From an uncultured Gammaproteobacteria bacterium (lineage in GTDB: Bacteria; Patescibacteriota; Patescibacteriia; Patescibacteriales; UBA12465), in assembly GCA_964639785.1 (NCBI GenBank), contig CAZXEE010000001.1, positions 243,832 through 307,831 on the forward strand: DNA of 64,000 nt, in the 5' to 3' direction. The notes under the pieces are model-generated. The model saw nothing but the letters and a program-made list of their open reading frames with translations. It ran no database searches and was not told the DNA's origin. The position numbers were made by a program, and so were the translations under genes. Every line of letters starts with the position of its first letter. The stretch's first letter is position 1. This document shows, one piece after another, positions 7,457 through 20,557 of the stretch.

Positions 7457-8080
7457 ATGGGCCAACAACTTTCCATCTTTTCTTATCAACCGGAAGAAGC
7501 TCCTAAGGGCTTCTATCTGTTTTTTGATACGGAAACGACCGGCTTGCCGCAGAATTATAATGCGCCCTATAGCGACCTGGATAATTGGCCGCGAGTCGTG
7601 CAATTAGCCTGGGTTTTAGCTGATGTTGAGAAGAAAATATTGGAAGAGAAGTCTTTTATCATCAAGCCGGATGGTTTCAGCATTCCGGCGGCTTCAGCGG
7701 CGGTCCATGGCATTGATGATGTCAAGGCTAATGAGATGGGAATTCCTTTAGTCGAAGCGCTGGATGCCTTTAATAAATCTTTGAAGGAGGCTAATCCGAC
7801 TTTGGTGGCCCATAATATTCTGTTCGATATCAATGTCTTGGGAGCGGAGTTCTTGCGGACCGAGATCCAAACTAATTTTATGGATCTGTCTCAAGTCTGT
7901 ACGATGAAGAGCAGTATTGAGTTTTGCGGCTTGCCGAACCGAAAATTCCCTAAATTAGCCGAACTGCATCGTCGCTTATTCGGTAGTGATTTTGAGAATG
8001 CTCATGACGCCCTGGCTGATGTCCTGGCTTGCTATCGCTGCTTCTTCGAGTTGAAAGCGCGGAAGATTATCGAGGGATAA
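7457..8080 (+). CDS. DEDDh 3'-5' exonuclease (DNA polymerase III epsilon-like)
   Basis: Exo I FFDTETTGLP, Exo II AHNILFDINVL and Exo III HDALADVLA motifs. Confidence 0.8.
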   Translation: MGQQLSIFSYQPEEAPKGFYLFFDTETTGLPQNYNAPYSDLDNWPRVVQLAWVLADVEKKILEEKSFIIKPDGFSIPAASAAVHGIDDVKANEMGIPLVEALDAFNKSLKEANPTLVAHNILFDINVLGAEFLRTEIQTNFMDLSQVCTMKSSIEFCGLPNRKFPKLAELHRRLFGSDFENAHDALADVLACYRCFFELKARKIIEG

Positions 8081-8098
8081 TTTTTTTTCTTTAAACTA

Positions 8099-8127
8099 TT
8101 GGCTCTTTCCTGGTTTTTTGTTATAAT
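8099..8127 (+). promoter_or_regulatory. Sigma70-type promoter of the pilus operon
   Basis: TTGGCT-N17-TATAAT, about 30 nt upstream of ATG 8159. Confidence 0.55.
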
Positions 8128-8158
8128 TAAGATATAAGAATATTATTTATTTTCCTGT

Positions 8159-8539
8159 ATGGCGACAACCGATTCACCTAAGAAAATTTTAATTGCTGAT
8201 GATGAAAAGGCGATTGCGAAGGCTTTGACTTTGAAGCTGACTAACGCCGGCTTTGCGGCTGATGTGGCGGTTAATGGCATTGAAGCGATCGACAAAATCA
8301 AGGCGGCTAAATTCGACTTGATCGTCTTGGATTTGATCATGCCGGAAAAAGATGGCTTTGCGGTTTTGGAATATATGCGTGACAACAAGATCAACACTCC
8401 GGTCTTGGTGGCTTCCAACTTAAGCCAAGAGGATGATTTGAAACGGGCCAAAGAATTGGGGGCGGTAGATTATTTTATCAAGTCAAATGTTTCTCTCCAA
8501 GAAATAATCAATAACATTAAGAAAACATTAAAAGTATGA
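8159..8539 (+). CDS. Single-domain response regulator (REC only, CheY-like)
   Basis: KILIADDE...DLIVLDLIMPEKDGF...PVLVASN...K receiver pattern. 126 aa with no output domain. Stop overlaps the pilB start (ATGA). Confidence 0.85.
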   Translation: MATTDSPKKILIADDEKAIAKALTLKLTNAGFAADVAVNGIEAIDKIKAAKFDLIVLDLIMPEKDGFAVLEYMRDNKINTPVLVASNLSQEDDLKRAKELGAVDYFIKSNVSLQEIINNIKKTLKV

Positions 8540-10188
8540 TCCTAAAAATAAGCGATGAGCTTTTGCCAGATATCTTGGTGTCCGAGAGCTATGTCTCGGA
8601 TGAGGACATGAAAAAGGCCGTTGATTTTGCCAAGAAGAACAATACTACCGCTTTGGATTATCTCTTCACTCAGAATATACTGACTAATGATTTATTAGGC
8701 CAGGCTCTCGCGGAATACTATAAGATTCCGTATTTTGATTTGAATACCCATGAGCTGAATCCGGCCCAAGTTTTGAAGTTGCCGGAAGAATTAGCCGTTA
8801 AATATAATATCCTTTTCTTGATGGAGAATAAGGATCAGATCTTGTTGGCCACCGATGATCCGACTCAGCCGGAGATGATTGCCGCTTTGCAGCAAGCTTT
8901 CCCGGGCAAGAAGATATTGTTCGCTTTTTCTTTGCCGGACGATATCAAGAGCAAGTTCGTTTTTTATCGCAAGACTTTGGAAACCCGTTTCGCTTCCATC
9001 TTGCAAGAGAAGAAGCGGGTAGCCCCGGAATTAGTGGACGAGATATTCAAGGACGCTATCTTCTATCGCGCTTCCGATATTCACTTTGAGCCGATGGCTA
9101 CTGAGGTCTTGGTTCGTTTCCGTATTGATGGCGTGCTTCAGGATGCCGGCCGGGTTACTAAGGAATATTATGATAATATCTTGAACTTGATTAAAGTTTT
9201 GGCTCATATCCGGACTGATGAACATCTGTCTGCCCAGGATGGAGCTATTCGTTATGGCGTGGAAGGTGGCGGCAGCGTTGATCTTCGTGTTTCTATCATC
9301 CCGACCGTCAATGGTGAGAAAGTGGTTATCCGTCTCTTATCCCAATATATCAGCAACTTATCCTTTTCTGATTTAGGCTTGTCTTACAATGACCATAAGA
9401 TGTTGGATCATAATATGCATCGGCAGTTCGGTATGATCTTGGTTACCGGTCCGACCGGTTCGGGAAAGACCACTACTTTATATGCCGTCTTGAAGGCCGT
9501 CAAGAATCCGGGCGTCAATATCACAACCATTGAAGATCCGGTGGAGTATAAGATCGCTGGCGTCAACCAGATCCAGGTCAATGAACAGACCAACTTAACC
9601 TTTGCTAAGGGTTTGCGCTCTATCATGCGTCAAGATCCTAATATCATCCTCGTGGGTGAAATCCGAGATAAGGAGACTTCGGAAATCGCGGTTAACGCCG
9701 CCTTAACCGGTCATTTATTATTATCTACTTTTCATGCCAATGATGCCTCGACTGCCGTTCCGCGCTTATTGGATATGGGAGTTGAACCGTTCTTGCTGTC
9801 ATCAACTTTGAAATTGATTATCGCTCAGCGTTTGGTCCGTCGCGTTTGTGAAAACTGCCGCCATGGCGTCGAGGTTTCCAAAGCGGCCTTGGACAAGAAA
9901 TATCCTTATTTAAAAACTTATTTCCCGGAGAAGAGCTATACTTTTTATGAAGGTAAGGGCTGCCAGTCTTGCAATTATACCGGCTTCAAGGGTCGGATAG
10001 CCATCTATGAATTAATTAGCATCTCGACCGCTATCCAGGAATTGATCGTAGCCAAGGCTCCGGCTCAGGAAATCTGGAAGGTGGCCGAAAAGGAAGGTTC
10101 TCGCTCTTTGTTTCTGGATGGTCTGGACAAGGTCCGGACCGGTGTCACCACTCTAGACGAGCTTTTGAGAATTGCTCGGCCATTCTAA
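8536..10188 (+). CDS. pilB: Type IV pilus / type II secretion assembly ATPase (PilB/GspE family)
   Basis: Walker A GPTGSGKTTTLYA, DPNIILVGEIRD, GHLLLSTFHAND and the tetracysteine motif CENC...CQSCNYTGFKGR. Confidence 0.9.
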   Translation: MILKISDELLPDILVSESYVSDEDMKKAVDFAKKNNTTALDYLFTQNILTNDLLGQALAEYYKIPYFDLNTHELNPAQVLKLPEELAVKYNILFLMENKDQILLATDDPTQPEMIAALQQAFPGKKILFAFSLPDDIKSKFVFYRKTLETRFASILQEKKRVAPELVDEIFKDAIFYRASDIHFEPMATEVLVRFRIDGVLQDAGRVTKEYYDNILNLIKVLAHIRTDEHLSAQDGAIRYGVEGGGSVDLRVSIIPTVNGEKVVIRLLSQYISNLSFSDLGLSYNDHKMLDHNMHRQFGMILVTGPTGSGKTTTLYAVLKAVKNPGVNITTIEDPVEYKIAGVNQIQVNEQTNLTFAKGLRSIMRQDPNIILVGEIRDKETSEIAVNAALTGHLLLSTFHANDASTAVPRLLDMGVEPFLLSSTLKLIIAQRLVRRVCENCRHGVEVSKAALDKKYPYLKTYFPEKSYTFYEGKGCQSCNYTGFKGRIAIYELISISTAIQELIVAKAPAQEIWKVAEKEGSRSLFLDGLDKVRTGVTTLDELLRIARPF

Positions 10189-10201
10189 TCTATCTAAAAA
10201 T

Positions 10202-11320
10202 ATGACGGAAAATAATAAAGTCGTTTTGCCGCCTAAGCCGGTTCGTAAGAAGAGCCTGTTTAATTTTGGCTATAGGAAAGAAGAAGATTATTTTTTTGAA
10301 AATCTTTCAATCTTGATGAGCTCTGGCATGCCGGTCAGTGAAGCAGTTATTGCTTTGAGCCGGGAAATGCGGACTCCGAGGATGATCGGACGGATTGAAG
10401 TCCTGGAAAGGGAAATCAATAATGGCGCTTCATTATATATCGCTTTAGAGCAGAGCAAGCTATTGCCTAAACATTTTGGTGACCTGATTCGGGTCGGTGA
10501 AAGCTCCGGTTTGTTAGTAGACAATTTCAATATCATTGTCGGCCAGAGACAGAAAGAGAGAGTCTTCAGCTCCCAGATTAAGGTGGCTATGGCTTATCCG
10601 GTGACTGTTCTGGTTGTGGCTGTTTTGATCGGCGTGGCTATCACTTGGTTCTTGTTGCCGGGATTATCCGGAATTTTTTCTTCCATGCAGATCAAGCTGC
10701 CCTTGATTACCAGGGTTATGATCGATTTCGGAAAATTCGTCTCTCGTTCCGGTTATTGGGTCTTACCGCTCTTTACTGTAGCTGTCTTTGCGATCCTTTA
10801 TTTTGTTTTTGCCTACAAGAAGACTAAGTTTATCGGGGAATATATTATCTTGCATTTGCCGGGAGTCAAGAAGATCATCCAGGACTCTGAGGTGTCACGG
10901 TTCTCTTATCTGTTAGGCAGTTTGCTGGGTGCCGGTCTGCCGATTGATGTGACGATCGGATTCTTGGCCGATTCTTCCAATGTTTTAGCTTACAAGAAAT
11001 TTTATAATTATGCCCGGGAAAAAGTAGTCGATGGTGAATCTTTTGCCCGGATTTTTGCTTCTTATCGCGGCATGGATAAATTGATTCCGGTTCCGATCCA
11101 GCAGACTATAGTCAGCGCGGAAAATTCCGGCCGTTTATCCGAAGCCAGTCTCCATATCTCCAAGATCTTCGAAGCGCGCATGGAGATCAATTACAAGCTT
11201 TTAACTACCATGCTCGAACCGATCCTTTTGGTCGTCGTCTGGTTGGGTGTCTTGGCTATCGCCCTGGCTATCGTGTTGCCGATCTATAGTTTGATCGGCG
11301 GTATGGGCCAACAGATTTAA
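10202..11320 (+). CDS. pilC: Type IV pilus platform protein (PilC/GspF family)
   Basis: Two GspF-like repeats with 3 TM segments (..AYPVTVLVVAVLIGV.., ..LEPILLVVVWLGVLAIALAIVLPIYSL). ATG 10202 preferred over TTG 10172. Confidence 0.85.
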   Translation: MTENNKVVLPPKPVRKKSLFNFGYRKEEDYFFENLSILMSSGMPVSEAVIALSREMRTPRMIGRIEVLEREINNGASLYIALEQSKLLPKHFGDLIRVGESSGLLVDNFNIIVGQRQKERVFSSQIKVAMAYPVTVLVVAVLIGVAITWFLLPGLSGIFSSMQIKLPLITRVMIDFGKFVSRSGYWVLPLFTVAVFAILYFVFAYKKTKFIGEYIILHLPGVKKIIQDSEVSRFSYLLGSLLGAGLPIDVTIGFLADSSNVLAYKKFYNYAREKVVDGESFARIFASYRGMDKLIPVPIQQTIVSAENSGRLSEASLHISKIFEARMEINYKLLTTMLEPILLVVVWLGVLAIALAIVLPIYSLIGGMGQQI

Positions 11321-11328
11321 TCAAATTT

Positions 11329-12777
11329 ATGAAGCTAAGAGCCTTCACACTGATCGAAATGTTATTATCGATGGCGGTCATTGCTATTTTAGCGGCAATC
11401 ATGACGCCAGTCTTTTTGTCTTTCCAGACCAGGAATGATGTCGATATTGCGGCTATGAGCTTAGTGCGGAGCATCCGTCGAGCCGAACAATTATCCCGTA
11501 ACGGGGAAGGCGATTCGGCTTGGGGCGTCAACCTGTCGAGCGGGGCGGTGACGGTTTTCAAAGGCAGTACTTATGCCAGCCGTGATGCCGGCTTCGATGA
11601 GATTTTTTCTATTCCTAATAACATAACCTTTACCGGAACTTCTTCGATAGTTTTCAGTAAGTTGTATGGATTGCCGGCGGCTAGCAGCACGATAGTTCTG
11701 ACGTCGGTTAACAATGAGTCGCGGACTATTACTATCAATGCTCGCGGAGCAGTATCTATGTCCATACCGGCAGCAGCGACTTCGACTTCTCCGGTTACTC
11801 CCGTCACCCCATCCGTTACCTTATCAGTTTCTACGGCATCAATAGCCGAAGCGGCCGGGACAGCGACTTTGACAGCAACGCTTTCAGCTACTACCACCAA
11901 TATCGTGACGGTTAATCTGGTTTATTCCGGCTCCGCTACGGTTACCAGCGATTATACTCGTCCATCTTTGATTACGGTTGCGGCTGGTTCTTTGTCTGGG
12001 ACCGGAACTTTGACGGCGGTCCAGGATGCTCTTTATGAGGGTAATGAAACTATCATTATCGATATCGATTCGGTTGTTAATGGTACGGAATCAGGAAGCC
12101 AGCAGCAGACTGTCACCATCGTTGATGACGATCCGGCTGGATTCATTTGCGGCACCGATCAAGTAACTATTACAACGGTGGCTGACCATACCTGCAATAC
12201 CGCTTATCCGGATTATGATACTTGTACTTATGATACGGTTTTGATCGGTTCCCAGTGCTGGATGAAACAGAATCTCAATATCGGTACTAGGATTGACGGT
12301 TATTCTTACTATCAGACCGATAATGGTACTTTGGAAAAATTCTGTTACAACGAGACTACTAGCTATTGTCAGACTTATGGCGGTTTATATGAATTTGATG
12401 AAGCACTGCAATATTCATCATCTGAAGGCGTTCAAGGCATCTGTCCTTCCGGTTGGCATGTTCCGACTGATGCCGAGTGGACAACCTTGTCTTCTTATCT
12501 GACAGCTAATGGCCAATCGGGAACAGAAGGTACTGCCTTGAAAGCAGTTTCTCCGACCTGGGATGGAACTAATAATTTTGGATTTACGGCTATTTCTGCC
12601 GGTAATTTGAATAGTAGTTATTCTTATGCCAGGTTGACTACTGATGTTTATTTCCGGACTTCTTCGGTTAACAGTACTTATGGCTGGTATCGCCGTTTGT
12701 CATCCGGTTCGGCAGTCGTCACCCGTTATTCCGATCTCAAGACTCTGGGCCTTTCGGTCCGCTGTTTGAAGAATTAA
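11329..12777 (+). CDS. Prepilin-type protein fused to a Calx-beta-like module and a FISUMP (Fibrobacter succinogenes major paralogous, TIGR02145-like) domain
   Basis: N-terminus MKLRAFTLIEMLLSMAVIAILAAI (N-methylation motif). Middle ..TLSVSTASIAEAAGTATLTATL..VTSDYT..YEGNETIIIDI..TVTIVDDD. C-terminus GSQCWMKQNLN..YGGLYEFDEA..CPSGWHVPTDAEWTTL..LSVRCLKN. Confidence 0.7.
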   Translation: MKLRAFTLIEMLLSMAVIAILAAIMTPVFLSFQTRNDVDIAAMSLVRSIRRAEQLSRNGEGDSAWGVNLSSGAVTVFKGSTYASRDAGFDEIFSIPNNITFTGTSSIVFSKLYGLPAASSTIVLTSVNNESRTITINARGAVSMSIPAAATSTSPVTPVTPSVTLSVSTASIAEAAGTATLTATLSATTTNIVTVNLVYSGSATVTSDYTRPSLITVAAGSLSGTGTLTAVQDALYEGNETIIIDIDSVVNGTESGSQQQTVTIVDDDPAGFICGTDQVTITTVADHTCNTAYPDYDTCTYDTVLIGSQCWMKQNLNIGTRIDGYSYYQTDNGTLEKFCYNETTSYCQTYGGLYEFDEALQYSSSEGVQGICPSGWHVPTDAEWTTLSSYLTANGQSGTEGTALKAVSPTWDGTNNFGFTAISAGNLNSSYSYARLTTDVYFRTSSVNSTYGWYRRLSSGSAVVTRYSDLKTLGLSVRCLKN

Positions 12778-12795
12778 TTAGGTTAAATTTAGTTT

Positions 12796-14271
12796 ATGAA
12801 TATTGGTAATAAAAAATTGGCTGGATTTTCCATGATCGAAGCCTTGCTGGCCGGGTCTTTATTGGCTTTGCTGGTCTTTACCTTAGCTAGCGTTTTGATT
12901 TTTGGCCAAGAGAGTTCGCGGATTTCGGGTGATCGGCAGAGAGCGGCAGCTTTAGCGGAAGAAGGATTGGAAGTTGCGCGCAATATGAGTGAGTCATCCT
13001 TTTCTAGCTTGAGTGCTGGATCCCATGGTTTGGCCATATCGGGCAACAAGTGGATATTCTCCGGAACTCAGGATGCGTCTGAAATCTTTACTCGCACTCT
13101 GATTGTTTCTGATGTCGATTCTTATACCAAGGCCGTGACTTCAACTGTCAGCTGGGTGGCTAGTCCGCAGCGGACCGGATCGATTTCTTTGACCGGCCGC
13201 TTCACCAATTGGCGCCGGGCAGCTACGAGCAATTGGGCTAGCACTACTGTCGAAGCGGCTTATTCTCCAAGTAATACTACTAACGGTGTTCGGGTTAGGG
13301 TGGATGGAAACTATGCCTATGTCGCTTTGTCATCGGGAACTAATAATTTTCTCGTAATCAATATCGCTAATCCGGCTAGTCCATCTTTAGTGGGCCAGAC
13401 TACAGTTTCCGGCACCATTACTGATATGGAGGTATCGGGAAATTATGTTTATCTTAGCACTACGAATAATACCGGCGAGTTAACTATAGTCAATGTAACG
13501 ACCAAGACCGCCCCGGCGGTTGTCGGATACTATGATGCTTATTATACCAATGACGGTTTGTCGGTTGATGTAATCGGTACCACCGTTTATCTGGGTCGAG
13601 CTTATAGCAGTAGGAATAGCGCTGGTGAATTTTATGTCATCAATGCTTCTACTCCCGGCTCTCCGGCTTTTTTAGGCGGAGTCGATTTGTCTTATTCGGT
13701 TTATGATATCCAAGTATCTTCTGATAGTTATGCCCATCTGGTTACCGATAGTGATTCTTCTGAGTTCTGGATCATTGATGTTATCAGTCCTAGTTCTATG
13801 AGCTTGGCGGATACGGTTGACATTGTTGGTTCCAATACCGCCTTGAATGCCTCGGCTATTGCCATCTTTGATTCTAATGCTAATGGTATAGAAGATATGG
13901 CAGTGGTGGCTCGAGCCGGCGAGGGTCGGATTTGGATGATAAACGCTTCAAGCCCCACTAACTCTACTCTAGTTTTGGCTAATGGTTATACGGTTACTCC
14001 GGTTGGGACGGCAAATATTAATCATCTAGATGTTTTTAATGCTAATAAATATCTGGCTTTGGCTACCAGTGCAGCCACGGCTGAAGAAGTCATTGTTGAT
14101 ATTACGACCCCAGCTTCGCCGACGCTTCTGAGCTCAACCAATATTGCTGGATCCAGCAACTTTGCTGCCATGGGCTTGGCTTATGCGGCCGGTGTCGATC
14201 GTTTATTGCTTGTCGGCACGCGCTTGTCGGCCAATGCCAATTATGTTTTGGAAATCATTAAGCCTAATTAA
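12796..14271 (+). CDS. Prepilin-type protein fused to an LVIVD-repeat-like beta-propeller
   Basis: N-terminus KKLAGFSMIEALLAGSLLALLVF. Repeated GNYAYVALSS..FLVINIANPASPSLVG and GNYVYLST..LTIVNVTTKTAPAVVG blocks. Confidence 0.65.
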   Translation: MNIGNKKLAGFSMIEALLAGSLLALLVFTLASVLIFGQESSRISGDRQRAAALAEEGLEVARNMSESSFSSLSAGSHGLAISGNKWIFSGTQDASEIFTRTLIVSDVDSYTKAVTSTVSWVASPQRTGSISLTGRFTNWRRAATSNWASTTVEAAYSPSNTTNGVRVRVDGNYAYVALSSGTNNFLVINIANPASPSLVGQTTVSGTITDMEVSGNYVYLSTTNNTGELTIVNVTTKTAPAVVGYYDAYYTNDGLSVDVIGTTVYLGRAYSSRNSAGEFYVINASTPGSPAFLGGVDLSYSVYDIQVSSDSYAHLVTDSDSSEFWIIDVISPSSMSLADTVDIVGSNTALNASAIAIFDSNANGIEDMAVVARAGEGRIWMINASSPTNSTLVLANGYTVTPVGTANINHLDVFNANKYLALATSAATAEEVIVDITTPASPTLLSSTNIAGSSNFAAMGLAYAAGVDRLLLVGTRLSANANYVLEIIKPN

Positions 14272-14274
14272 TTT

Positions 14275-14775
14275 ATGAGAAGAGCCGGTTTTACCTTAAT
14301 CGAATTATCCCTGTACATCGCTTTGGCGGCTGTGGTCCTTTTGGGTTCTTCTTCTATGCTGTCGTTGGTATCGGAAGCGCGGATCAAGGATACGGTTATC
14401 AGTGAGGTGGAACAGCAAAGCGATTCAGCCTTGCAGGTGATAACCCAAGGACTGAGGAATGCTACAGCAGTCAATTCTCCGACAGCCGGAGCTAGCTCCA
14501 CTTCTTTGTCTATCAATACGACGGTATCGGCTAATAATCCGACAGTTTTTAGCTTGTCTGACGGAGCTATTATGATCAAGGAAGGTTCGTCTGATGCTGT
14601 AGCTTTGACTAATTCTAATGTTACTATATCCTCTTTAGTCTTTCAGAATCTGGCTCAGACCTCGGCTAAGAGTAGCGTCCGGGTTTCGTTCTCAGCTTCT
14701 TACAAGAGCAATTCTACCAGGCAGGTTTATCAATATAGCCGGAACTTCTATGGTTCCGGATCCTTACGCCAATAA
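14275..14775 (+). CDS. Minor (pseudo)pilin, prepilin-type N-terminus
   Basis: MRRAGFTLIELSLYIALAAVVLL. 166 aa. 3-nt gaps to the neighbouring genes. Confidence 0.7.
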   Translation: MRRAGFTLIELSLYIALAAVVLLGSSSMLSLVSEARIKDTVISEVEQQSDSALQVITQGLRNATAVNSPTAGASSTSLSINTTVSANNPTVFSLSDGAIMIKEGSSDAVALTNSNVTISSLVFQNLAQTSAKSSVRVSFSASYKSNSTRQVYQYSRNFYGSGSLRQ

Positions 14776-14777
14776 TT

Positions 14778-15176
14778 ATGAAACGGATCAATGATCGACA
14801 ACCAGCTTTTGTTTCGATGGTCAGTGTCCTGATTCTAGGTGCGGTCGGCTTGAGCGTATCTTTGTATATCATCCTGTTCTCCTTAGCTGCTTCCAAGAAT
14901 AGCTTGTCATTATCCCAGTCGGTCCAAGCTCGGACTCTGGCTACGGCTTGTGCGGAAAGCGCACTAGAGAAGATTCGAGAGTCTTCATCCTATACCGGAA
15001 CTACAAATATGTCTTTGGGGAATGGTTCTTGTTCTTATACAGTCAGCAATACCGGCGGAGAAACGCGGACAATCGCTGTGACGGCAACGGTAGCTAGCAC
15101 GGTCAGGCGGATTAGCCTGGCAGTAACCGCTATTACGCCGGTGATTACTACCGGTTCTTGGCAGGAGACGCCCTAA
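14778..15176 (+). CDS. PilX-N-like pilus assembly protein (no canonical cleavage motif)
   Basis: N-terminus QPAFVSMVSVLILGAVGLSVSL resembles PilX N-terminal helices. Position within the pilin gene block. Confidence 0.45.
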   Translation: MKRINDRQPAFVSMVSVLILGAVGLSVSLYIILFSLAASKNSLSLSQSVQARTLATACAESALEKIRESSSYTGTTNMSLGNGSCSYTVSNTGGETRTIAVTATVASTVRRISLAVTAITPVITTGSWQETP

Positions 15177-15235
15177 AACTTAGGATTTGGTTTTTTTCGT
15201 TATTTTATGTATACTATATAGGTATTATAAATTCA

Positions 15236-15260
15236 TTTAGCTGCAAAAGGTCGAGCTAAA
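15236..15260 (+). promoter_or_regulatory. Conserved leader hairpin, copy 1
   Basis: TTTAGCT-gcaaaaggtcg-AGCTAAA, ending 26 nt before the ATG. Identical in all three cassettes. Confidence 0.5.
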
Positions 15261-15285
15261 TAACCTTTAATTTATTAATAAACAT

Positions 15286-15717
15286 ATGAAAAATAAAAAA
15301 GCTTTTACTTTGTTAGAAATCTTGTTAGTAGTCGCTGCGATTGCTATTTTAGCCGGTATCGTCATTTTGGCTATCAACCCGACTAAGCAGTTAGGTGACA
15401 CTAGAAATTCCCAGCGCCGTATCGATGTTAACACCATCTTGAATGCTGTTTATCAATACGCTATCGATAATAATGGCACCTTGCCAGCATCCGTAACTAC
15501 TACTGTCCAGAATATTTGTAAAACTGGCGGCAGCACATCTTCTTGTGCTGATCTATCAGTTTTGACTACCGACGCTAAGTATTTGGTTTCTATTCCAACC
15601 GATCCATCTGGAGCTGAGACTTATGCTAACTACAATATCCAGAGAACTGCTACTGGCCGCATTACTGTTTCCGCTCCAAATGCTGAACAGGGTGCTACCA
15701 TCTCCGTTACTAGATAA
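15286..15717 (+). CDS. Type IV major pilin paralogue 1 (143 aa)
   Basis: MKNKKAFTLLEILLVVAAIAILAGIVILAI prepilin N-terminus. Two conserved Cys. C-terminus GATISVTR. Confidence 0.85.
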   Translation: MKNKKAFTLLEILLVVAAIAILAGIVILAINPTKQLGDTRNSQRRIDVNTILNAVYQYAIDNNGTLPASVTTTVQNICKTGGSTSSCADLSVLTTDAKYLVSIPTDPSGAETYANYNIQRTATGRITVSAPNAEQGATISVTR

Positions 15718-15790
15718 TAAATATGTGATAGAATCTGCCTGCTTTCTTTTCTGAAATCGGGCAGACTGGATTATGTATTTATCATTTTCC

Positions 15791-15815
15791 TTTAGCTGCA
15801 AAAGGTCGAGCTAAA
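15791..15815 (+). promoter_or_regulatory. Conserved leader hairpin, copy 2
   Basis: Same 25-nt sequence as at 15236, 26 nt before ATG 15841. Confidence 0.5.
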
Positions 15816-15840
15816 TAACCTTTAATTTATCAATAAACAT

Positions 15841-16293
15841 ATGAAAAATAAAAAAGCTTTTACTTTGTTAGAAATCTTGTTAGTAGTCGCTGCGATTGCT
15901 ATTTTAGCCGGTATCGTCATCTTGGCTATCAACCCGACTAAGCAGTTAGGTGACACTAGGAATTCCCAGCGCCGTATTGATGTCAACACTATCTTGAATG
16001 CTGTTTATCAATACGCCGTTGATAATAACGGCAATCTGCCGACTATTATCCCGACTTCCACTGCTACCGTTACTTACGGTATCTGTAAGACTAATGCTAC
16101 CCCAACCACCAGTTGTTATGACTTATCAGTTTTGACTGATAATGCTAAATACTTGGTTTCCATTCCAACTGATCCATCTGGAGTTATCAATACCGTTGAT
16201 AGCAATTATCGTATCCAGAGAACCTCTACTGGCCGCGTTACTGTCTGGGCTAATGCTCCGGAACAGGGTGCTACCATTTCCGTTACTCGCTAA
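15841..16293 (+). CDS. Type IV major pilin paralogue 2 (150 aa)
   Basis: First 59 aa identical to paralogue 1. The central loop and the segment after DPSG are divergent. Confidence 0.85.
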   Translation: MKNKKAFTLLEILLVVAAIAILAGIVILAINPTKQLGDTRNSQRRIDVNTILNAVYQYAVDNNGNLPTIIPTSTATVTYGICKTNATPTTSCYDLSVLTDNAKYLVSIPTDPSGVINTVDSNYRIQRTSTGRVTVWANAPEQGATISVTR

Positions 16294-16366
16294 TAAATAT
16301 GCGATAGAATCTGCCTGCTTTCTTTTCTGAAATCGGGCAGACTGGATTATGTATTTATCATTTTCC

Positions 16367-16391
16367 TTTAGCTGCAAAAGGTCGAGCTAAA
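16367..16391 (+). promoter_or_regulatory. Conserved leader hairpin, copy 3
   Basis: Same 25-nt sequence, 26 nt before ATG 16417. Confidence 0.5.
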
Positions 16392-16416
16392 TAACCTTTA
16401 ATTTATCAATAAACAT

Positions 16417-16854
16417 ATGAAAAATAAAAAAGCTTTTACTTTGTTAGAAATCTTGTTAGTAGTCGCTGCGATTGCTATTTTAGCCGGTATCGTCATCTTG
16501 GCTATCAACCCGACTAAGCAGTTAGGTGACACTAGGAATTCTCAGCGCCGTATTGATGTTAACACCATCTTGAATGCTGTTTACCAATACGCTATCGACA
16601 ACAATGGCACTTTGCCAACAGCCGTAACTACTACTGTCAAGAGCGTTTGCAAGACTGATGCCGAAAGCACTTCCACTTGTGCCGATTTGTCAGTTCTAAC
16701 TACTGATGCTAAATACTTGGTTTCCATTCCAACTGATCCATCCGGAGCCGGTACTAATGATTCCAATTACAGCATCTTGAGAACCGCTACCGGTCGTATC
16801 ACTGTTTCTGCTCCAAATGCTGAACAGGGTGCTACTATTTCCGTTACTAGATAA
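16417..16854 (+). CDS. Type IV major pilin paralogue 3 (145 aa)
   Basis: Same N- and C-termini as paralogues 1 and 2, with a divergent centre. Confidence 0.85.
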   Translation: MKNKKAFTLLEILLVVAAIAILAGIVILAINPTKQLGDTRNSQRRIDVNTILNAVYQYAIDNNGTLPTAVTTTVKSVCKTDAESTSTCADLSVLTTDAKYLVSIPTDPSGAGTNDSNYSILRTATGRITVSAPNAEQGATISVTR

Positions 16855-16937
16855 TAAATATGTGATAGAATCTGCTTGATTTTTATGATTATAAAATCAA
16901 GCAGACTTGATCACGTATTTACTCTTATTACTTTTTT

Positions 16938-18470
16938 ATGTCTTTCCGTAAAAAAATCATCATTTTTGTCATCCTGGTTTCATCCGGACTTTTGATTTTT
17001 TTATATTCTTCTCTCTTATTCGTCTTGAATAAGAATTTTTCTTATTTGGAAGATGATGCTGTCGACCGCCGCTTGAAAAGAGTGGAGAGCGTTGCTAATA
17101 CTTATTTTAATTCATTGAAATCCAAAGCTTATGACTGGGGCGAATGGGATGAAGCTTATGATTTCACGGTTGACCAGAACCAGGTTTTTGTCGAGAGTAA
17201 TTTGAATGATATCTCTTTGATAAACTTAGATGTTAATGCCATAGCTTTTGTGGACAATGATGGTAACGTCCAGGGTGTGGCAGCTTATGATTTCGTTACC
17301 GAGAAGACTGATCCGGATTTTCTCAATTTGCTTAAAGGAGAGCTGACCGATCCTTATTTCAAGAAGTATTTTATGTCTAACGATTATCAGCAGGGTATAG
17401 TGCTTTTCTCGGGTGATCGTCCGCCGTTCCTCATGGTTTCCAAGCAGGTTTTGCGTAGCGATAAGAGCGGACCAGCTTTGGGCCATGTCTTCATGGGTCG
17501 CTTCTTAGATGAGGCTTTCGTCAATTATCGTTTTGGCGATATCGCCCTGTATTCCACCATGCTGGAGCGGGTTGATAGCGCTAAACTGCCCAATGATTTT
17601 TTGGAGGCTAGGAACAGACTGATTCTGAATGATAGCTATGTCATTTCTCCTAAAAATTCCCAGAATATTTATGGTTACTCTCTCTTCAAGGATTACAGCA
17701 ATAATCCGGCTTTTGTTTTTCGGATCGAGACCGATCGTCTGCTTTACCAATATGAGATTAATATCCTGATATACATCTCAGTCTTATTATTCGCGATGAT
17801 CCTGATATTCGTCTTGTTCTTCTTGTGGATGATTAATCGGGTGTTTGTCAGCCGTTTGATTAAGATGTTTAATAAGGTGGAGGAATACAAGAAGAATCCG
17901 GATGCGGAGGATATCGATATCAGCATTCCTGGCAAAGATGAATTGTCGGCTTTGTCAGATGAATTTAATAATCTGGTCAAGGAATTGGCTGATTCCCGTA
18001 ACTTCTATCGTAATCTTTTAGTCCGTTTGCCGGATATCGTTATCTTAGCCAAAGCTGGACGGGCTATCTATGTCAATGATGCTTTTGAGGCCGCTACTGG
18101 CTTCAAGAAGGAGGATTTTATGGGCAAGGATGTCTTCAGTTTTGTCAGTCCGGAATATCAGGACGTAGTCAATCAGAACATGAAGATGCGCTTCTCTGGA
18201 GTGGATGTCGAACCTTATATCATCAAGATAGCGACCAGCAAGAAAGATCTCTATGCCCGGGTTAATGCGAAAGTTATCAATTATCAGGGAGACAAAGTGG
18301 ATCTGATCGTGTTGACCGATGTCAGCGCGACGATTGAGAGCCAGAAGAATGTGGAGGAGAAGGTCGATGAATTGGAGCGTTTGAACCGGATTATGATCAA
18401 TCGAGAATTGAAGATGATGGATCTCAAGAAGAAGATTGAAGAATCTGACAATGCTAACCAGAAGAAATAG
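16938..18470 (+). CDS. Membrane sensor protein: CHASE4-like extracytoplasmic domain, HAMP-like linker, PAS domain and coiled coil, with no transmitter domain
   Basis: TM1 IIIFVILVSSGLLIF. YDWGEWDEAYDF..VFVESNL pattern (CHASE4-like). TM2 ILIYISVLLFAMILIFVLFFLW. PAS-like ..ILAKAGRAIYVNDAFEAATGFKKEDFMGKD... No H-box or ATPase motifs. Confidence 0.6.
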   Translation: MSFRKKIIIFVILVSSGLLIFLYSSLLFVLNKNFSYLEDDAVDRRLKRVESVANTYFNSLKSKAYDWGEWDEAYDFTVDQNQVFVESNLNDISLINLDVNAIAFVDNDGNVQGVAAYDFVTEKTDPDFLNLLKGELTDPYFKKYFMSNDYQQGIVLFSGDRPPFLMVSKQVLRSDKSGPALGHVFMGRFLDEAFVNYRFGDIALYSTMLERVDSAKLPNDFLEARNRLILNDSYVISPKNSQNIYGYSLFKDYSNNPAFVFRIETDRLLYQYEINILIYISVLLFAMILIFVLFFLWMINRVFVSRLIKMFNKVEEYKKNPDAEDIDISIPGKDELSALSDEFNNLVKELADSRNFYRNLLVRLPDIVILAKAGRAIYVNDAFEAATGFKKEDFMGKDVFSFVSPEYQDVVNQNMKMRFSGVDVEPYIIKIATSKKDLYARVNAKVINYQGDKVDLIVLTDVSATIESQKNVEEKVDELERLNRIMINRELKMMDLKKKIEESDNANQKK

Positions 18471-18491
18471 GCTTTTGGCCGTGCTCAAATT

Positions 18492-20555
18492 ATGAAGTAT
18501 ATAAATAGCAAGCCGACAATTTTTTTCGTTAATATCTTAGCCAGTTTTTTTCTGGTTTTTAGTTTTTTGTTCGTCTATTTGAGCTTCAATTATTTTGACG
18601 CCGCTTCCAAGGTAGTTTCCAGTCAGTCTAATGATTTCTTGCTGGTGGAAAGTGCCAACAATCTTTTGACCGATTGGAACAGGTCATTATTCATGATGGA
18701 TCGTAGCCTGGAAGATGAAAGTTATCAGCCGACCGTTGAACAGGAGAATTTTTATACGGACCAGTCTAAGCATAATCTGGATATCATGAAGGATTATTAT
18801 GCTTCTTCCAATGAGAAATATAGCCAAAGTCCAGACTTAGCGGAAGTTTTCTTGAATATCGGCAATGATATCAATATGCTGGATTCTTATTCGGCCCAGT
18901 TCTATAATTACATCCGCCAAGGCAATCGGGAAGCGGCTCATTCTCTGCGTCATAAGGAGGTTTATCAACTGCAGAATAGCTTGAATAGCAATATCAATTT
19001 GTTCGTAGATAAGGTTAGGCAGCAGAATTTCGCTTCCGGCCAGCAGATCGTAGCCAAGCAAAGATCCGACACCCGCTGGTTCATATTTATTTTCTTCTTT
19101 TATTTTATTCTGGTCGTCGTAGCCCCGATCCTGATCTATCGGATGATCGGCCGTTATTTCAAGAATTTGCATCAGACTATCTACAAGATAATATCCGGCG
19201 ACTTGTCCCAGCGTCTCAAGGAGGATGCCGGTCCGTTGGAGTTCTGCGAACTAAGCAAGATTTTCAATAAGATGACTAGAAAATTGCAAGATTCAAACTC
19301 TTCGTTGGAAGCTAAGATTAAGGAAAAGGTTATGGCTTTAGATGAGCAATTGGCTCGGAGCAAGGAACAGGAATTATCTCTGGAAGAACAGAAGGAGGAT
19401 ATGGAAAAGACTAAGGCTTCAATTCTGAACGTGTTGGAGGATGTCAACGAAGAAAGGACTCGAGCCGACTCGCTCGCTCAAGATTTGCAGAAATTCAAAT
19501 TGGCCGTAGATAATGCTTCGGATTATATTGCTATTACCAATCGCGAGGGAATCATCCTTTATGCTAACCACGGAGTTGAGAAGATTACCGGATTTAGCAT
19601 TGAAGAAGCTTTGGGAAAAAAGGTTGGAAATAAGCAATTATGGGGTGGAAATATGCCGCTCGAATTTTATAAAGGATTATGGGACACTATCAAGGTCAAG
19701 AAACAGAATTTTGTCGGAGAGTTTAATAATCGACGAAAGAACGGGGAGGATTTTGTGGCTGCTATCAGTATCTCTCCGATCCTGAATGCTGCCGGCGATG
19801 TCGAATTCTTCGTCTCTATCGGACGCGATATTACCGTAGCCAAGAGAATCGATATGGCCAAGACGGAATTCGTTTCTTTGGCCTCGCATCAGCTCCGGAC
19901 TCCGCTGACATCGGTTAAGTGGCATGCTGAGATGTTGCTTGATGGCGATGCCGGTCCTTTGGGAGAAGAGCAGAAGGATTTCACCCAGGAAATTTACAAC
20001 AGCAATGAAAGGATGATCGATCTGGTTGATTCTCTTTTGGATGTTTCCCGTTTGGATTTAGGAACCTTAAAGGTTGAAGGTTTGCCGACCGATATTTTGG
20101 AATTGGTCAAAGGTTTGGTAGGCGAGGTCGGACCATTGATTGCCAAGAAAAAAGTTAAATTATTTGAGAAATATGACCAGAAATTGCCGATTATTGAGTT
20201 GGACAAGAAACTTTCATATATGATCATCCAAAACTTGCTGACTAATGCGGTCAAGTATAGCCGTTCCGGCGGAGAAGTGACGATTGAGATCAAGAATGAT
20301 GGAGCTAAGCAGATTCTAGTCAAAGTAACCGACCAGGGCTATGGTATCCCGCTTCAAGATCAAGATCGGATTGCTTCTAAATTGTTCCGAGCTGACAATG
20401 CCCGGAAGATGGAGCCGGATGGCAATGGCTTAGGATTATACATTGTCAAATCGATTGTCAATCAAGCCGGCGGAAAATTCTGGTTCGAATCTAAGGAGAA
20501 TGAAGGTTCTACCTTCTTCGTTTCCTTGCCGATTAAACTACCTAAGAAAAAATAA
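18492..20555 (+). CDS. Sensor histidine kinase (TM sensor, HAMP, coiled coil, PAS, HisKA, HATPase_c)
   Basis: H-box FVSLASHQLRTPLTSV, N-box LLTNAVKYS, and G-boxes DQGYGIP and GNGLGLYIVKSIV. Confidence 0.9.
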   Translation: MKYINSKPTIFFVNILASFFLVFSFLFVYLSFNYFDAASKVVSSQSNDFLLVESANNLLTDWNRSLFMMDRSLEDESYQPTVEQENFYTDQSKHNLDIMKDYYASSNEKYSQSPDLAEVFLNIGNDINMLDSYSAQFYNYIRQGNREAAHSLRHKEVYQLQNSLNSNINLFVDKVRQQNFASGQQIVAKQRSDTRWFIFIFFFYFILVVVAPILIYRMIGRYFKNLHQTIYKIISGDLSQRLKEDAGPLEFCELSKIFNKMTRKLQDSNSSLEAKIKEKVMALDEQLARSKEQELSLEEQKEDMEKTKASILNVLEDVNEERTRADSLAQDLQKFKLAVDNASDYIAITNREGIILYANHGVEKITGFSIEEALGKKVGNKQLWGGNMPLEFYKGLWDTIKVKKQNFVGEFNNRRKNGEDFVAAISISPILNAAGDVEFFVSIGRDITVAKRIDMAKTEFVSLASHQLRTPLTSVKWHAEMLLDGDAGPLGEEQKDFTQEIYNSNERMIDLVDSLLDVSRLDLGTLKVEGLPTDILELVKGLVGEVGPLIAKKKVKLFEKYDQKLPIIELDKKLSYMIIQNLLTNAVKYSRSGGEVTIEIKNDGAKQILVKVTDQGYGIPLQDQDRIASKLFRADNARKMEPDGNGLGLYIVKSIVNQAGGKFWFESKENEGSTFFVSLPIKLPKKK

Positions 20556-20557
20556 AT

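What the first reader, a model, noticed from the sequence alone, without database searches (positions are those of the whole stretch)
8099..20555. Type IV pilus locus flanked by two-component signalling genes (REC-PilB coupling, sensor pair downstream)
Every gene from the TTGGCT-N17-TATAAT promoter at 8099 to 20555 is on the plus strand, with gaps of -4 to 110 nt. In order they are:
- a REC-only response regulator, whose stop overlaps the pilB start in ATGA at 8536-8539
- the PilB ATPase
- the PilC platform protein
- four prepilin-like genes
- three major-pilin paralogues
- a CHASE4-like/HAMP/PAS membrane sensor with no transmitter domain
- a HAMP/PAS histidine kinase

No PilD peptidase, PilM/N/O/Q or PilT retraction ATPase is present in the window. 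A single-domain receiver translationally coupled to the extension ATPase suggests that pilus assembly is gated by phosphorylation. In a small-genome, possibly episymbiotic bacterium, such a pilus would be a candidate host-contact or DNA-uptake organelle. The domain calls rest on motifs; the functional link between the parts is inference.
Basis: partly seen in the sequence, partly recalled or inferred. Interest (0 to 1): 0.8.

Follow-up and report, generated by a model that had tools for sequence, protein, structure and literature searches.

The report
Signal-gated pilus operon in CPR bacterium
A 12.5-kb gene cluster in a small-genome Patescibacteria (CPR) bacterium encodes a minimal type IV pilus bracketed by a one-domain response regulator, whose stop codon overlaps the start of the pilus motor gene, and by two membrane sensors; the layout recurs across CPR lineages, which suggests that these likely symbionts switch pilus assembly by phosphorylation in response to outside signals.

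Summary
Every gene and domain call was confirmed by HMM searches. The ATGA overlap between the receiver (REC) and PilB and the TTGGCT-N17-TATAAT promoter are at the stated coordinates. No PilD, PilM/N/O/Q or PilT is found in any ORF of at least 110 aa in the window.

The organism is a CPR bacterium close to Candidatus Falkowbacteria.

- In 11 of 12 contexts fetched through PilB homologues (56-91% identity, several CPR classes), a REC-only gene sits directly upstream of PilB, often with the same 4-nt overlap. Seven further genome-scan loci show the same adjacency.
- Downstream follow PilC, four minor pilins, the major pilin(s) and a PAS histidine kinase.
- The kinase moves between the two ends of the locus but stays attached to it.
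- A Calditrichota MAG encodes a natural PilB-REC fusion.
- The transmitter-less CHASE4-PAS protein corresponds to the N-terminal half of a fused CHASE4 kinase found beside REC-PilB in another lineage.

Best reading: sensor kinase phosphorylates REC, and phosphorylated REC modulates PilB. This resembles the Xanthomonas regulator EmvR. Phosphotransfer, binding, the sign of the effect and the signal are all inferred. I found no description of this coupling in CPR in the searchable literature. It is a new variant of a known kind, of moderate interest.

The parts
8099..8127 (+). Promoter-like site TTGGCT-N17-TATAAT with TG extended -10, upstream of REC
   Evidence: ties for the top score (10 of 12) in 7300-22300; the -35 TTGGC and TGnTATAAT are conserved in L081, L083 and L170 while flanking intergenic sequence diverges.
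8159..8539 (+). Single-domain response regulator (REC only, 126 aa); its stop overlaps the pilB start (ATGA 8536-8539)
   Evidence: Response_reg 1.9e-22, no other domain. D14, D15, D58, S86 and K108 are present, and D15/D58/K108 are invariant in orthologues; overlap confirmed.
8536..10188 (+). PilB-type extension ATPase (550 aa)
   Evidence: T2SSE 6.5e-119 plus MshEN; best matches are PilB and GspE, both below the equivalog cut-offs; closest solved structures are PilF and PilB. Walker A 305-312, Asp box, Walker B 371-378, His box, and tetracysteine C438/C441/C476/C479.
10202..11320 (+). PilC platform protein (372 aa from ATG 10202; the ORF list starts it at TTG 10172)
   Evidence: T2SSF x2, 2.7e-36; orthologues are 372 aa and start 13-15 nt after pilB. 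ATG at 10202.
11329..12777 (+). Minor pilin 1: GspH/FimU-class pilin carrying Calx-beta and FISUMP (Fib_succ_major) C-terminal modules (482 aa)
   Evidence: N_methyl, Calx-beta, Fib_succ_major; the AF2 pilin head matches FimU 4ipu and EpsH 2qv8; orthologues are 144 aa (no module) or 370 aa (FISUMP only).
12796..14271 (+). Minor pilin 2 with LVIVD-repeat / beta-propeller body (491 aa)
   Evidence: LVIVD 7.6e-15, Beta_propel; weak PilV and ComGE N-terminal hits; the position is conserved, and the body is LVIVD or fn3 in relatives.
14275..14775 (+). Minor pilin 3 (166 aa)
   Evidence: N_methyl 7e-05; orthologues at the same position in all related loci.
14778..15176 (+). Minor pilin 4 (132 aa), pilin-like N-terminus lacking Glu5 (GspK/ComGG-like)
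   Evidence: sequence PAFVSMVSV; weak ComGG hit, E 0.02; conserved position in relatives.
15286..16854 (+). Three tandem major-pilin paralogues (15286-15717, 15841-16293, 16417-16854). The N-terminal 62 aa are identical, the central part varies, and the C-terminal tail is conserved
   Evidence: N_methyl in each; 555-576-bp tandem units; 64-91% identity to pilins of distant CPR loci; a promoter-like site (TATACT -10, aligned with TGTGTATAAT in L170 and L083) and a 5'-UTR hairpin lie before pilA1, and a hairpin follows each copy.
16938..18470 (+). Membrane sensor CHASE4-TM-(HAMP)-PAS with a C-terminal coiled-coil stub; no transmitter (510 aa)
   Evidence: CHASE4 8.5e-25 and PAS; no HisKA or HATPase; about 10 clusters of 362-510 aa, most 473-510 aa; further end-to-end relatives of 511-536 aa; collinear with the N-terminal half of the fused L009 kinase.
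18492..20555 (+). Sensor histidine kinase: 2 TM, unknown extracytoplasmic domain, HAMP, coiled coil, PAS, HisKA (H466), HATPase_c (687 aa)
   Evidence: HAMP, PAS_9, HisKA 5.2e-18, HATPase_c 3.5e-25. H, N, G1 and G2 boxes. TM segments at 7-25 and 192-210.

Best explanation
**What it is (shown).** This is the Patescibacteria-type minimal type IV filament operon. It encodes PilB, PilC, four core minor pilins and the major pilin, here triplicated. Two of the minor pilins carry adhesin-like modules. It has no retraction ATPase and no PilM/N/O of its own. It is wired to a dedicated two-component pathway.

**Proposed mechanism (inferred).**
1. The membrane kinase (18492-20555) detects an extracytoplasmic cue, probably together with the transmitter-less CHASE4-PAS co-sensor (16938-18470).
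2. The kinase autophosphorylates on H466 and transfers the phosphoryl group to D58 of the 126-aa receiver.
3. The receiver has no output domain. It acts by protein-protein contact on the extension ATPase PilB, whose gene its stop codon overlaps. Pilus assembly is thereby switched post-translationally.
4. The filament tip, formed by the minor-pilin complex with its FISUMP/Calx-beta and beta-propeller modules, then makes contact with a surface or host.

**Shown:** gene content, domain integrity, catalytic residues, conserved linkage of REC and kinase with the pilus genes, and the existence of fusion forms.

**Inferred:** phosphotransfer partner, REC-PilB binding, direction of the effect (activation or repression), the signal, and the role of the pilus.
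For: **Domains and residues.**

**REC sits immediately upstream of PilB.**
- Eleven of 12 PilB-anchored look-ups or their equivalents: P0007, P0003, P0009, P0020, P0030, P0055, P0096, P0052, P0019, plus L170 and L171 reached via the CHASE4 protein.
- Genome-scan loci L001-L004 and L007-L009.
- PilB loci of the PilB-PilT-PilC type, both non-CPR and other CPR, lack it.

**Overlap.** The 4-nt ATGA overlap is kept in the window clade, L085 and L089. Gaps are 6-40 nt in most others.

**Kinase.** It is always in the locus but changes side: upstream as HK-REC-PilB in L002-L004 and L007-L009, downstream of the pilin in L001, L085-L089, L173, L174 and the window. The association has therefore survived rearrangement.

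**Rosetta-stone forms.**
- L024 encodes MshEN-T2SSE-linker-Response_reg in one 811-codon frame.
- L009 has one 908-aa CHASE4-HAMP-PAS-PAS-HisKA-HATPase kinase. L007 has the same thing as a CHASE4-HAMP-PAS protein plus a soluble PAS-PAS kinase, beside REC-PilB.

**Precedent.**
- The single-domain regulator EmvR binds PilB and represses its ATPase; its Asp59 is the phosphorylation site (PMC11973254).
- The REC-only DrdR binds PilB and PilT and stimulates them (PMC13507683).

**Genomic economy.** Patescibacteria carry only about 5 two-component systems per genome (PMC7137472), so dedicating one to this locus is notable.
Against: - There is no direct evidence of phosphotransfer or of REC-PilB contact. 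A complex prediction could not be run.
- One sampled relative (L172, Uhrbacteria) has a divergent PilD gene instead of REC upstream of PilB, and only an HK-REC pair downstream.
- Many relatives carry a second single-domain REC right after the kinase (L001, L085, L086, L088, L089). That REC could be the real cognate partner. The window lacks it.
- REC homologues of 44-51% identity occur in HK-REC contexts without PilB (L092, L094). The 120-aa receiver tree does not cleanly separate a PilB-dedicated orthogroup.
- In Synechocystis it is the PATAN domain, not the REC domain, that binds PilB1, and CheY-type regulators did not bind (bioRxiv 10.1101/2021.06.11.447907).
- Tight spacing also links the kinase to tpiA, so spacing by itself says little.
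Confidence: 0.6

Rival explanations
1. The two-component genes report on the pilus rather than gate it. The kinase senses pilin pool or filament state, as PilS does. The receivers act as a phosphate sink or on a target other than PilB, for example PilC, cell division or metabolism.
For: - The kinase lies directly after the major pilin gene in the window and most relatives.
- A second REC follows the kinase in many loci, recalling the paired PilG/PilH or CheY/sink designs.
- PatA-type regulators in Synechocystis also contact PilC (bioRxiv 10.1101/2021.06.11.447907).
Against: - The kinases carry classical extracytoplasmic ligand-binding modules that vary between lineages: CHASE4, CHASE, dCache, MASE3. 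They have 2 TM segments, not the 6-TM pilin-sensing PilS membrane domain.
- The conserved, often overlapping junction is REC-PilB specifically.
- A PilB-REC fusion exists.
Confidence: 0.2
2. The filament is a Com-like or T2SS-like pseudopilus used mainly for DNA uptake or secretion rather than an adhesive pilus. The signalling genes would then time competence.
For: - Gene content matches the comG layout: ATPase, platform, four minor pilins, one major pilin, and no PilT or PilM/N/O in this or any related locus.
- There are weak ComGD/ComGE/ComGG/GspG/GspH hits, and mp1 has a GspH/FimU fold.
- CPR bacteria depend on imported nucleotides and are naturally competent (background; PMC12206443).
Against: - All ComG and Gsp equivalog scores are far below their cut-offs, and PilB scores highest.
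- Large surface-binding modules sit on two minor pilins: FISUMP, Calx-beta, LVIVD propeller.
- In TM7x, mutants of the PilT-less T4P-2, which carries a beta-propeller minor pilin, lost host binding but kept wild-type competence (PMC12206443). Orthology of that system to this locus was not established.
Confidence: 0.2
3. The linkage is historical only. REC, the kinase and the pilus genes are co-inherited neighbours in streamlined genomes with strong strand bias, and have no functional connection.
For: - About 89% of window genes are co-directional, and housekeeping tpiA follows the kinase by 2 nt.
- L172 lacks the upstream REC.
Against: - Flanking genes differ completely between CPR classes while REC...HK travels with the pilus genes.
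- The kinase has moved from one end to the other and stayed attached.
- Fusion proteins exist.
- REC and PilB are both hit by nonsense codons in L170 while neighbouring genes are intact. This is anecdotal.
Confidence: 0.07

Closest known systems
EmvR (Xanthomonas oryzae pv. oryzicola) and DrdR (X. campestris): output-less response regulators acting on PilB
   Same: - The regulators consist only of REC domain(s).
- EmvR has a phosphorylatable Asp (Asp59), binds PilB and changes its ATPase activity. It takes its signal from a sensor kinase (PMC11973254, PMC13507683).
- The window REC has the same catalytic residue set.
   Different: - EmvR and DrdR are orphan genes, not linked to pilB. Here the REC gene overlaps pilB and the kinase is in the same locus across a whole radiation.
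- Sequence similarity is only generic REC-level.
- Interaction is untested here, and the sign is unknown: EmvR represses, DrdR activates.
Saccharibacteria (TM7x) type IV pili T4P-1 / T4P-2
   Same: - CPR host.
- T4aP-like PilB and PilC.
- A PilT-less second system (T4P-2) with a beta-propeller minor pilin (PilX2), involved in host binding.
- Several pilin loci (PMC12206443).
   Different: - The TM7x loci as described contain PilM/N/O. No response regulator or kinase is mentioned: zero occurrences of 'response regulator', 'histidine kinase' or 'two-component' in the paper.
- Environmental Saccharimonadia (L002-L004) do carry the REC-PilB type.
PilS-PilR two-component control of pilin transcription (Pseudomonas, Myxococcus, Geobacter; also seen here in Acidobacteriota loci as pilB-pilT-pilC-HK-RR)
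   Same: A kinase and a response regulator are encoded next to pilB, pilC and pilA (L015, L017, L018, L022 and others).
   Different: - PilR is an NtrC-type sigma54 activator of about 450 aa with AAA+ and DNA-binding domains. The window REC is 126 aa with no output domain.
- PilS has a multi-TM pilin-sensing domain. The window kinase has 2 TM plus HAMP-PAS.
- Control here must be post-transcriptional.
Bacillus/Streptococcus ComG competence pseudopilus operon
   Same: An ATPase, a platform protein, four minor pilins and one major pilin in one operon. No retraction ATPase and no PilM/N/O. Monoderm-type envelope.
   Different: - Scores to the ComGA/GB/GC-GG equivalogs are all below cut-off.
- Gene order puts the major pilin last.
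- The minor pilins carry large adhesin-like modules.
- There is an embedded two-component system.
Modular type IV pilins of Streptococcus sanguinis (PilB vWA, PilC lectin)
   Same: A pilin N-terminal module is fused to a bulky C-terminal binding domain, giving the filament adhesive properties (PMC8179133, title and abstract seen).
   Different: - The grafted modules differ (Calx-beta + FISUMP; LVIVD propeller).
- The function of FISUMP is unknown, and no solved structure matched it by sequence or Foldseek.

Membership tests
Type IV filament system, T4aP-like | PilB/GspE-family hexameric extension ATPase with Walker A/B, Asp and His boxes and a Zn tetracysteine | tested here: met
   The NCBIfam PilB equivalog scores 488 bits, below its 675 cut-off. 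This makes it a family member but not a curated equivalog.
Type IV filament system, T4aP-like | PilC/GspF polytopic platform protein | tested here: met
   T2SSF x2, 2.7e-36.
Type IV filament system, T4aP-like | Major pilin and a core set of four minor pilins with a class III signal peptide (G/A-F-T-L-x-E) | tested here: met
   N_methyl is found in five of the seven pilin-like genes. The -1 residue is Ala in the major pilins and mp1. mp4 lacks Glu5, like GspK/ComGG. mp1 has a FimU/GspH fold.
Type IV filament system, T4aP-like | Prepilin peptidase PilD (Peptidase_A24) | tested here: not met
   None is found in any ORF of at least 110 aa in the 64-kb window. It may be encoded elsewhere in the genome. 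It is adjacent in L172 and lies in locus one of TM7x.
Type IV filament system, T4aP-like | PilM/PilN/PilO alignment proteins and the PilT retraction ATPase | tested here: not met
   They are absent from the window and from all related REC-type loci within +/-10 kb. Other CPR loci of the PilB-PilT-PilC type do have PilT (L010, L011, L027, L071).
Type IV filament system, T4aP-like | Outer-membrane secretin PilQ | tested here: not met
   No secretin domain is found in the window. None is expected for CPR cells, which lack an outer membrane (PMC7137472).
Two-component phosphotransfer system | Kinase with HisKA phospho-acceptor His and HATPase_c N/G1/G2 boxes | tested here: met
   H466; N box 581-589; DxGxG 614-619; GxGLG 644-649.
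Two-component phosphotransfer system | Receiver with acidic pocket, phospho-acceptor Asp, and T/S and K switch residues | tested here: met
   D14, D15, D58, S86, K108. D15, D58 and K108 are invariant in 21 related receivers.
Two-component phosphotransfer system | Specific phosphotransfer from this kinase to this receiver | not testable with these tools
   The only support is genomic linkage. HK-REC are directly adjacent in L002-L004 and L006-L009.
PilS-PilR pilin-transcription system | NtrC-type regulator with sigma54 AAA+ and DNA-binding output; multi-TM PilS | tested here: not met
   REC is 126 aa with no output domain. The kinase has 2 TM segments.
Pil-Chp / chemosensory control (PilG/PilH, ChpA, PilJ) | CheA-type kinase, CheW and MCP alongside CheY-like regulators | tested here: not met
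   No CheA, CheW or MCP signal domains are found in any window ORF.
EmvR-like PilB-binding single-domain regulators | Physical binding to PilB that alters its ATPase activity | not testable with these tools
Indirect support comes from the conserved overlap with pilB and the PilB-REC fusion in L024.
c-di-GMP-binding MshEN-type PilB | RLGxx(L/V/I)(L/V/I)xxG... motifs in the N-domain | tested here: inconclusive
   The Pfam MshEN domain hits. By eye, the N-terminal sequence lacks the Arg-Leu-Gly starts. No GGDEF or EAL protein is found in the window. No formal motif scan was done.

The most novel reading that the evidence does not exclude
The REC-PilB...HK module is a radiation-wide 'sense-and-grab' circuit. 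CPR episymbionts read a host-derived or environmental ligand through lineage-specific extracytoplasmic sensors (CHASE4, CHASE, dCache, MASE3). They then directly switch the pilus extension motor through a dedicated output-less receiver. This would trigger extension of a non-retractile adhesive pilus whose tip modules (FISUMP, Calx-beta, propeller, fn3) set host specificity. It would be one of only about five signalling pathways these reduced genomes keep, and a primary determinant of host recognition.
Probability: 0.3. Interest if true: 0.75.

Novelty: new variant of a known kind. Interest (0 to 1): 0.55.

Why it matters
How ultrasmall CPR/Patescibacteria find and attach to hosts is an open question. 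Type IV pili are the only attachment organelles shown experimentally so far (TM7x, TM7i), and nothing is known about how they are regulated.

This locus type links a pilus motor to a sensor kinase through a one-domain receiver. It does so conservatively across many CPR classes, in genomes that keep only a handful of two-component systems.

That yields a concrete, testable circuit: ligand, then kinase, then REC~P, then PilB. It also yields candidate sensor domains for host cues. The variable modular tip pilins are candidates for host-range determinants.

If the circuit proves real, the EmvR/DrdR-type 'receiver acts directly on PilB' mechanism, currently a Xanthomonas curiosity, would become a widespread and ancient mode of pilus control.

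Tried and rejected
1. **Genome-collection scan with a PilB alignment.** It was still useful as a contrast set: non-CPR PilB-PilT-PilC loci lack the REC.
2. **Metagenome scan with REC alignments.** The first alignment was too divergent (error). The second used generic REC motifs and returned mostly ordinary OmpR-type regulators. Only L090 and L091 (at least 50% identity) were informative, and both are followed by PilB. This spent the single metagenome scan.
3. **REC-PilB complex prediction.** Not possible. The structure tool takes one chain, the two genes are in different frames, and the natural fusion (L024) is not an allowed input.
4. **Separating a PilB-dedicated REC orthogroup by identity and NJ tree.** Only partly successful. 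Upstream RECs average 46% identity to each other against 35% to post-kinase RECs, but some post-kinase or unlinked RECs nest among them.
5. **Fold of the FISUMP module.** No PDB match by sequence or Foldseek. The Calx-beta segment was modelled with low confidence.
6. **Reading the CHASE4 protein as a truncated pseudogene.** Rejected. Its length and C-terminal tail are conserved in about 10 close clusters and more distant 511-536-aa relatives. The next gene starts with its own N-terminal TM segment.
7. **Reading the CHASE4 protein and the kinase as recent paralogues.** Rejected. Only a PAS-level match was found.
8. **Literature.** No paper in the searchable library combines CPR/Patescibacteria pili with a response regulator or kinase. 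The library is incomplete, so prior description cannot be excluded.

Full report
**1. Observation**

The ORF map matches the finding. All genes are on the + strand.

| Gene | Coordinates | Evidence |
|---|---|---|
| REC, 126 aa | 8159-8539 | Pfam Response_reg only, 1.9e-22 |
| PilB | 8536-10188 | T2SSE 6.5e-119 plus MshEN-type N-domain |
| PilC | 10172/10202-11320 | T2SSF x2 |
| Minor pilin mp1 | 11329-12777 | N_methyl + Calx-beta + Fib_succ_major |
| Minor pilin mp2 | 12796-14271 | LVIVD/beta-propeller |
| Minor pilin mp3 | 14275-14775 | N_methyl |
| Minor pilin mp4 | 14778-15176 | no Pfam hit; pilin-like N-terminus lacking Glu5 |
| Major pilins x3 | 15286-15717, 15841-16293, 16417-16854 | N_methyl each |
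| CHASE4 + PAS sensor | 16938-18470 | no HisKA or HATPase |
| Histidine kinase | 18492-20555 | HAMP-PAS-HisKA-HATPase_c |

- The ATGA overlap at 8536-8539 is in the sequence.
- TTGGCT-17-TATAAT at 8099, with a TG extended -10, ties for the top score (10 of 12) in the region. Its two hexamers are conserved in three relatives whose flanking intergenic sequence has diverged.
- Pfam scans of all other window ORFs of at least 110 aa found no Peptidase_A24, PilM/N/O/Q, PilT-like ATPase, CheA/CheW/MCP or GGDEF/EAL. A permissive rescan of the unannotated ORFs found none either.

Small corrections:
- The largest gap is 123 nt, not 110.
- PilC most likely starts at ATG 10202, as in orthologues.
- HAMP in the CHASE4 protein is called only in orthologues.
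- The tight co-directional run continues into tpiA (+2 nt), a TPR gene and tRNA-Thr. About 89% of window genes are on the + strand. Strand and spacing therefore do not delimit the unit.

**2. Organism**

- PilB's best hits are all Patescibacteria/CPR. They run at 81-91% identity for a few metagenomic relatives and about 56-60% across many CPR groups.
- The CHASE4 protein's named relatives are Candidatus Falkowbacteria.
- The contig PFAQ01000041.1 of a Falkowbacteria MAG is syntenic from gyrB to the TPR gene.
- A CPR-typical T4SS_pilin family protein also lies in the window.

**3. Neighbourhood conservation**

I fetched contexts for nine PilB homologues chosen without regard to neighbours, plus two contexts via the CHASE4 protein.

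- REC-only genes of 113-126 aa lie immediately upstream of PilB in L081/L082, L083/L084, L085, L086, L087, L088, L089, L170, L173 and L174.
- The one exception is L172 (Uhrbacteria). There a divergent PilD gene occupies that position, and an HK-REC pair follows the minor pilins.
- In the genome-collection scan, loci L001-L004 and L007-L009 show the same REC-PilB-PilC-mp1-mp2-mp3-mp4-pilin order. L006 shows HK-REC-PilC-mp1-4 with PilB displaced.
- By contrast, about 70 PilB loci from other phyla, and CPR loci of the PilB-PilT-PilC type (L010, L011, L027, L071), have no REC at that position.
- The 4-nt ATGA overlap recurs in the window clade, L085 and L089. Most others have 6-40-nt gaps.
- A PAS-HisKA-HATPase kinase is present in every locus that extends far enough. 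Its position differs: directly upstream as HK-REC-PilB (L002-L004, L007-L009), or after the major pilin (window, L001, L085-L089, L173, L174).
- The kinase's extracytoplasmic module also differs: CHASE4, CHASE, dCache, MASE3 or none.
- Flanking housekeeping genes differ entirely between classes.

The conserved unit is therefore REC + PilB + PilC + four minor pilins + major pilin + kinase. Its survival through rearrangement argues for a functional link.

**4. Fusion evidence**

- In L024 (a Calditrichota MAG), one uninterrupted 811-codon frame encodes MshEN-T2SSE, a Lys/Pro-rich linker and a C-terminal Response_reg domain (5e-31) with intact catalytic residues. This is a Rosetta-stone link between a receiver and PilB.
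- In L009, the kinase beside REC-PilB is a single 908-aa CHASE4-HAMP-PAS-PAS-HisKA-HATPase protein.
- In L007, the same region is two overlapping genes: a 511-aa CHASE4-HAMP-PAS protein without a transmitter, and a soluble PAS-PAS-HisKA-HATPase kinase. The latter is 63% identical to the C-terminal part of the L009 protein.
- The window's 510-aa CHASE4-PAS protein aligns end-to-end with the L007 protein. The match includes a conserved C-terminal coiled-coil tail: ELERLNRIMINRELKMMDLKKKI in the window against EIERMNQVMVDREIKMVELKEKI in L007.
- This form is a conserved family. About 10 close clusters run from 362 to 510 aa, most of them 473-510 aa. Further end-to-end relatives of 511-536 aa appear among 596 strong hits, most of which are N-terminal modules of longer proteins.

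It is best read as a stand-alone co-sensor that works with the adjacent kinase, not as a decayed gene. That partnership is inferred.

**5. Integrity of the signalling parts**

- REC keeps D14, D15, D58, S86 and K108. D15, D58 and K108 are invariant in 21 related receivers.
- The kinase keeps H466 and the N, G1 and G2 boxes.
- REC has only generic receiver similarity to solved structures.
- PilB is closest to T4aP PilB/PilF structures. It has all ATPase motifs and the tetracysteine.

**6. The filament**

- The gene set is minimal and ComG-like in content: no PilT, PilM/N/O or PilD in this or any related locus. It nevertheless scores best as PilB/T4aP, and below all equivalog cut-offs.
- The AF2 model of mp1 has mean pLDDT 76. 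Its pilin head matches the minor pilins FimU and EpsH, which places it in the GspH/FimU class.
- The C-terminal cargo of mp1 varies even among close relatives: none (144 aa, L081), FISUMP (370 aa, L083 and L170), or Calx-beta + FISUMP (482 aa, window).
- N_methyl + FISUMP pilins recur in Patescibacteria.
- mp2 carries an LVIVD propeller, or fn3 in some relatives.
- The major pilin is unusually conserved across CPR, at 64-91% identity. Here it is triplicated in 555-576-bp tandem units that differ mainly in the central region.
- These features favour an adhesive, surface- or host-contact filament. In TM7x, the PilT-less T4P-2, with a beta-propeller minor pilin, contributes to host binding but not to competence or twitching (PMC12206443). 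Orthology to that system was not testable.

**7. Mechanism**

The best-supported model runs as follows. The kinase, with the CHASE4 co-sensor, detects an external cue. It phosphorylates REC D58. REC~P then acts directly on PilB, or on the PilB-PilC motor, to gate extension.

Direct action is required because REC has no output domain. Experimental precedent exists for REC-only regulators that bind PilB and change its ATPase activity: EmvR represses (PMC11973254) and DrdR activates (PMC13507683).

Caveats:
- The second post-kinase REC in many relatives could be the true cognate partner.
- L172 lacks the upstream REC.
- Related RECs occur without PilB (L092, L094).
- In Synechocystis it is the PATAN domain, not REC, that binds PilB1 (bioRxiv 10.1101/2021.06.11.447907).

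I put about 0.6 on the gating model. Confidence that this is a conserved pilus-plus-two-component module is above 0.9.

**8. Novelty**

- The TM7x pilus paper does not mention response regulators or kinases.
- A 2024 review of PilB cofactors has no CPR entry and no REC-only PilB partner.
- No paper in the searchable library combines CPR pili with two-component terms.
- The individual genes are annotated in many MAGs, and the mechanism type is known from Xanthomonas.

This is therefore a new variant of a known kind: a radiation-wide, operon-encoded version. It is not a new category. Interest is moderate (0.55). It gives a directly testable handle on how CPR symbionts regulate their attachment organelle.

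Noticed in passing
L170:2664-4693 (Ca. Falkowbacteria MAG GCA_002778645.1, contig PFAQ01000041.1; syntenic to window 8159-10188): The REC orthologue has a GTG start, the phospho-acceptor Asp replaced by Ala (LIVLALIVP), and an in-frame TAG at the Gln90 position. The PilB orthologue has an in-frame TAA at Gln46. Both ORFs are otherwise intact and highly conserved, and the neighbouring genes are full length. This could be recent joint inactivation, a strain variant, an assembly error or read-through.
   Followed up: partly
L024:456-2888 (Calditrichota MAG JAJRSN010000361.1): A natural single-frame fusion of MshEN-T2SSE (PilB) with a C-terminal receiver domain, joined by a Lys/Pro-rich linker. 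How common such fusions are was not surveyed.
   Followed up: partly
window 11329-12777; L081:12778-13212; L083:12794-13906: The first minor pilin gains and loses C-terminal modules between close relatives: 144 aa bare, 370 aa with FISUMP, 482 aa with Calx-beta + FISUMP. The FISUMP domain models at pLDDT above 90 but has no solved structural match.
   Followed up: partly
window 15177-16937: The three pilin copies sit in 555-576-bp tandem units. A promoter-like site and a 5'-UTR hairpin (TTTAGCT...AGCTAAA) precede pilA1. The site reads TATACT at the -10 in the window, aligned with TGTGTATAAT in L170 and L083; L171 carries the hairpin. Each copy is followed by a hairpin (TCTGCCTGC...GGGCAGA) without a T-run. 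The prepilin -1 residue is Ala (KKAFTLLE), where other CPR pilins have Gly.
   Followed up: partly
window 50209-52376: An orphan modular pilin (499 aa). It has a GspG-like N-terminus with Ala at -1, followed by several ~48-aa TPYVAY...KYNGSAWE repeats that suggest a beta-propeller. A Peptidase_C39-like protein follows immediately.
   Followed up: partly
window 26252-26617: A small protein matches the T4SS_pilin family (PF18895, 2.7e-11). It lies next to an SPFH/Band-7 protein and unannotated membrane-protein-like ORFs. This may be a separate surface system.
   Followed up: no
L087:16918-17232; L174:14334-14696; L088:1482-2855: Genes for the diversity-generating-retroelement accessory protein bAvd sit inside the REC-type pilus loci of two relatives, between pilin genes. 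A bAvd plus reverse transcriptase pair lies 8 kb upstream in a third. This hints that pilus tip proteins may be DGR targets in some CPR. No reverse transcriptase was found in the window.
   Followed up: no
L083:9243-10004 and L084:3526-4287: An 89%-identical relative has two tandem REC genes upstream of pilB. The extra copy is 67% identical to the window REC. The window has only one.
   Followed up: partly
L172:2797-8863 (Uhrbacteria MAG JAZDEQ010000032.1): A second compact filament system lies next to the REC-less version of the locus: a 442-aa T2SSE, a T2SSF and four small proteins, with a divergent pilin gene and PilD.
   Followed up: no
window 43412-45019: A LexA-like S24 peptidase/repressor is followed by a BRO-N domain protein, downstream of three unannotated minus-strand ORFs. 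This may be a mobile-element or prophage remnant.
   Followed up: no
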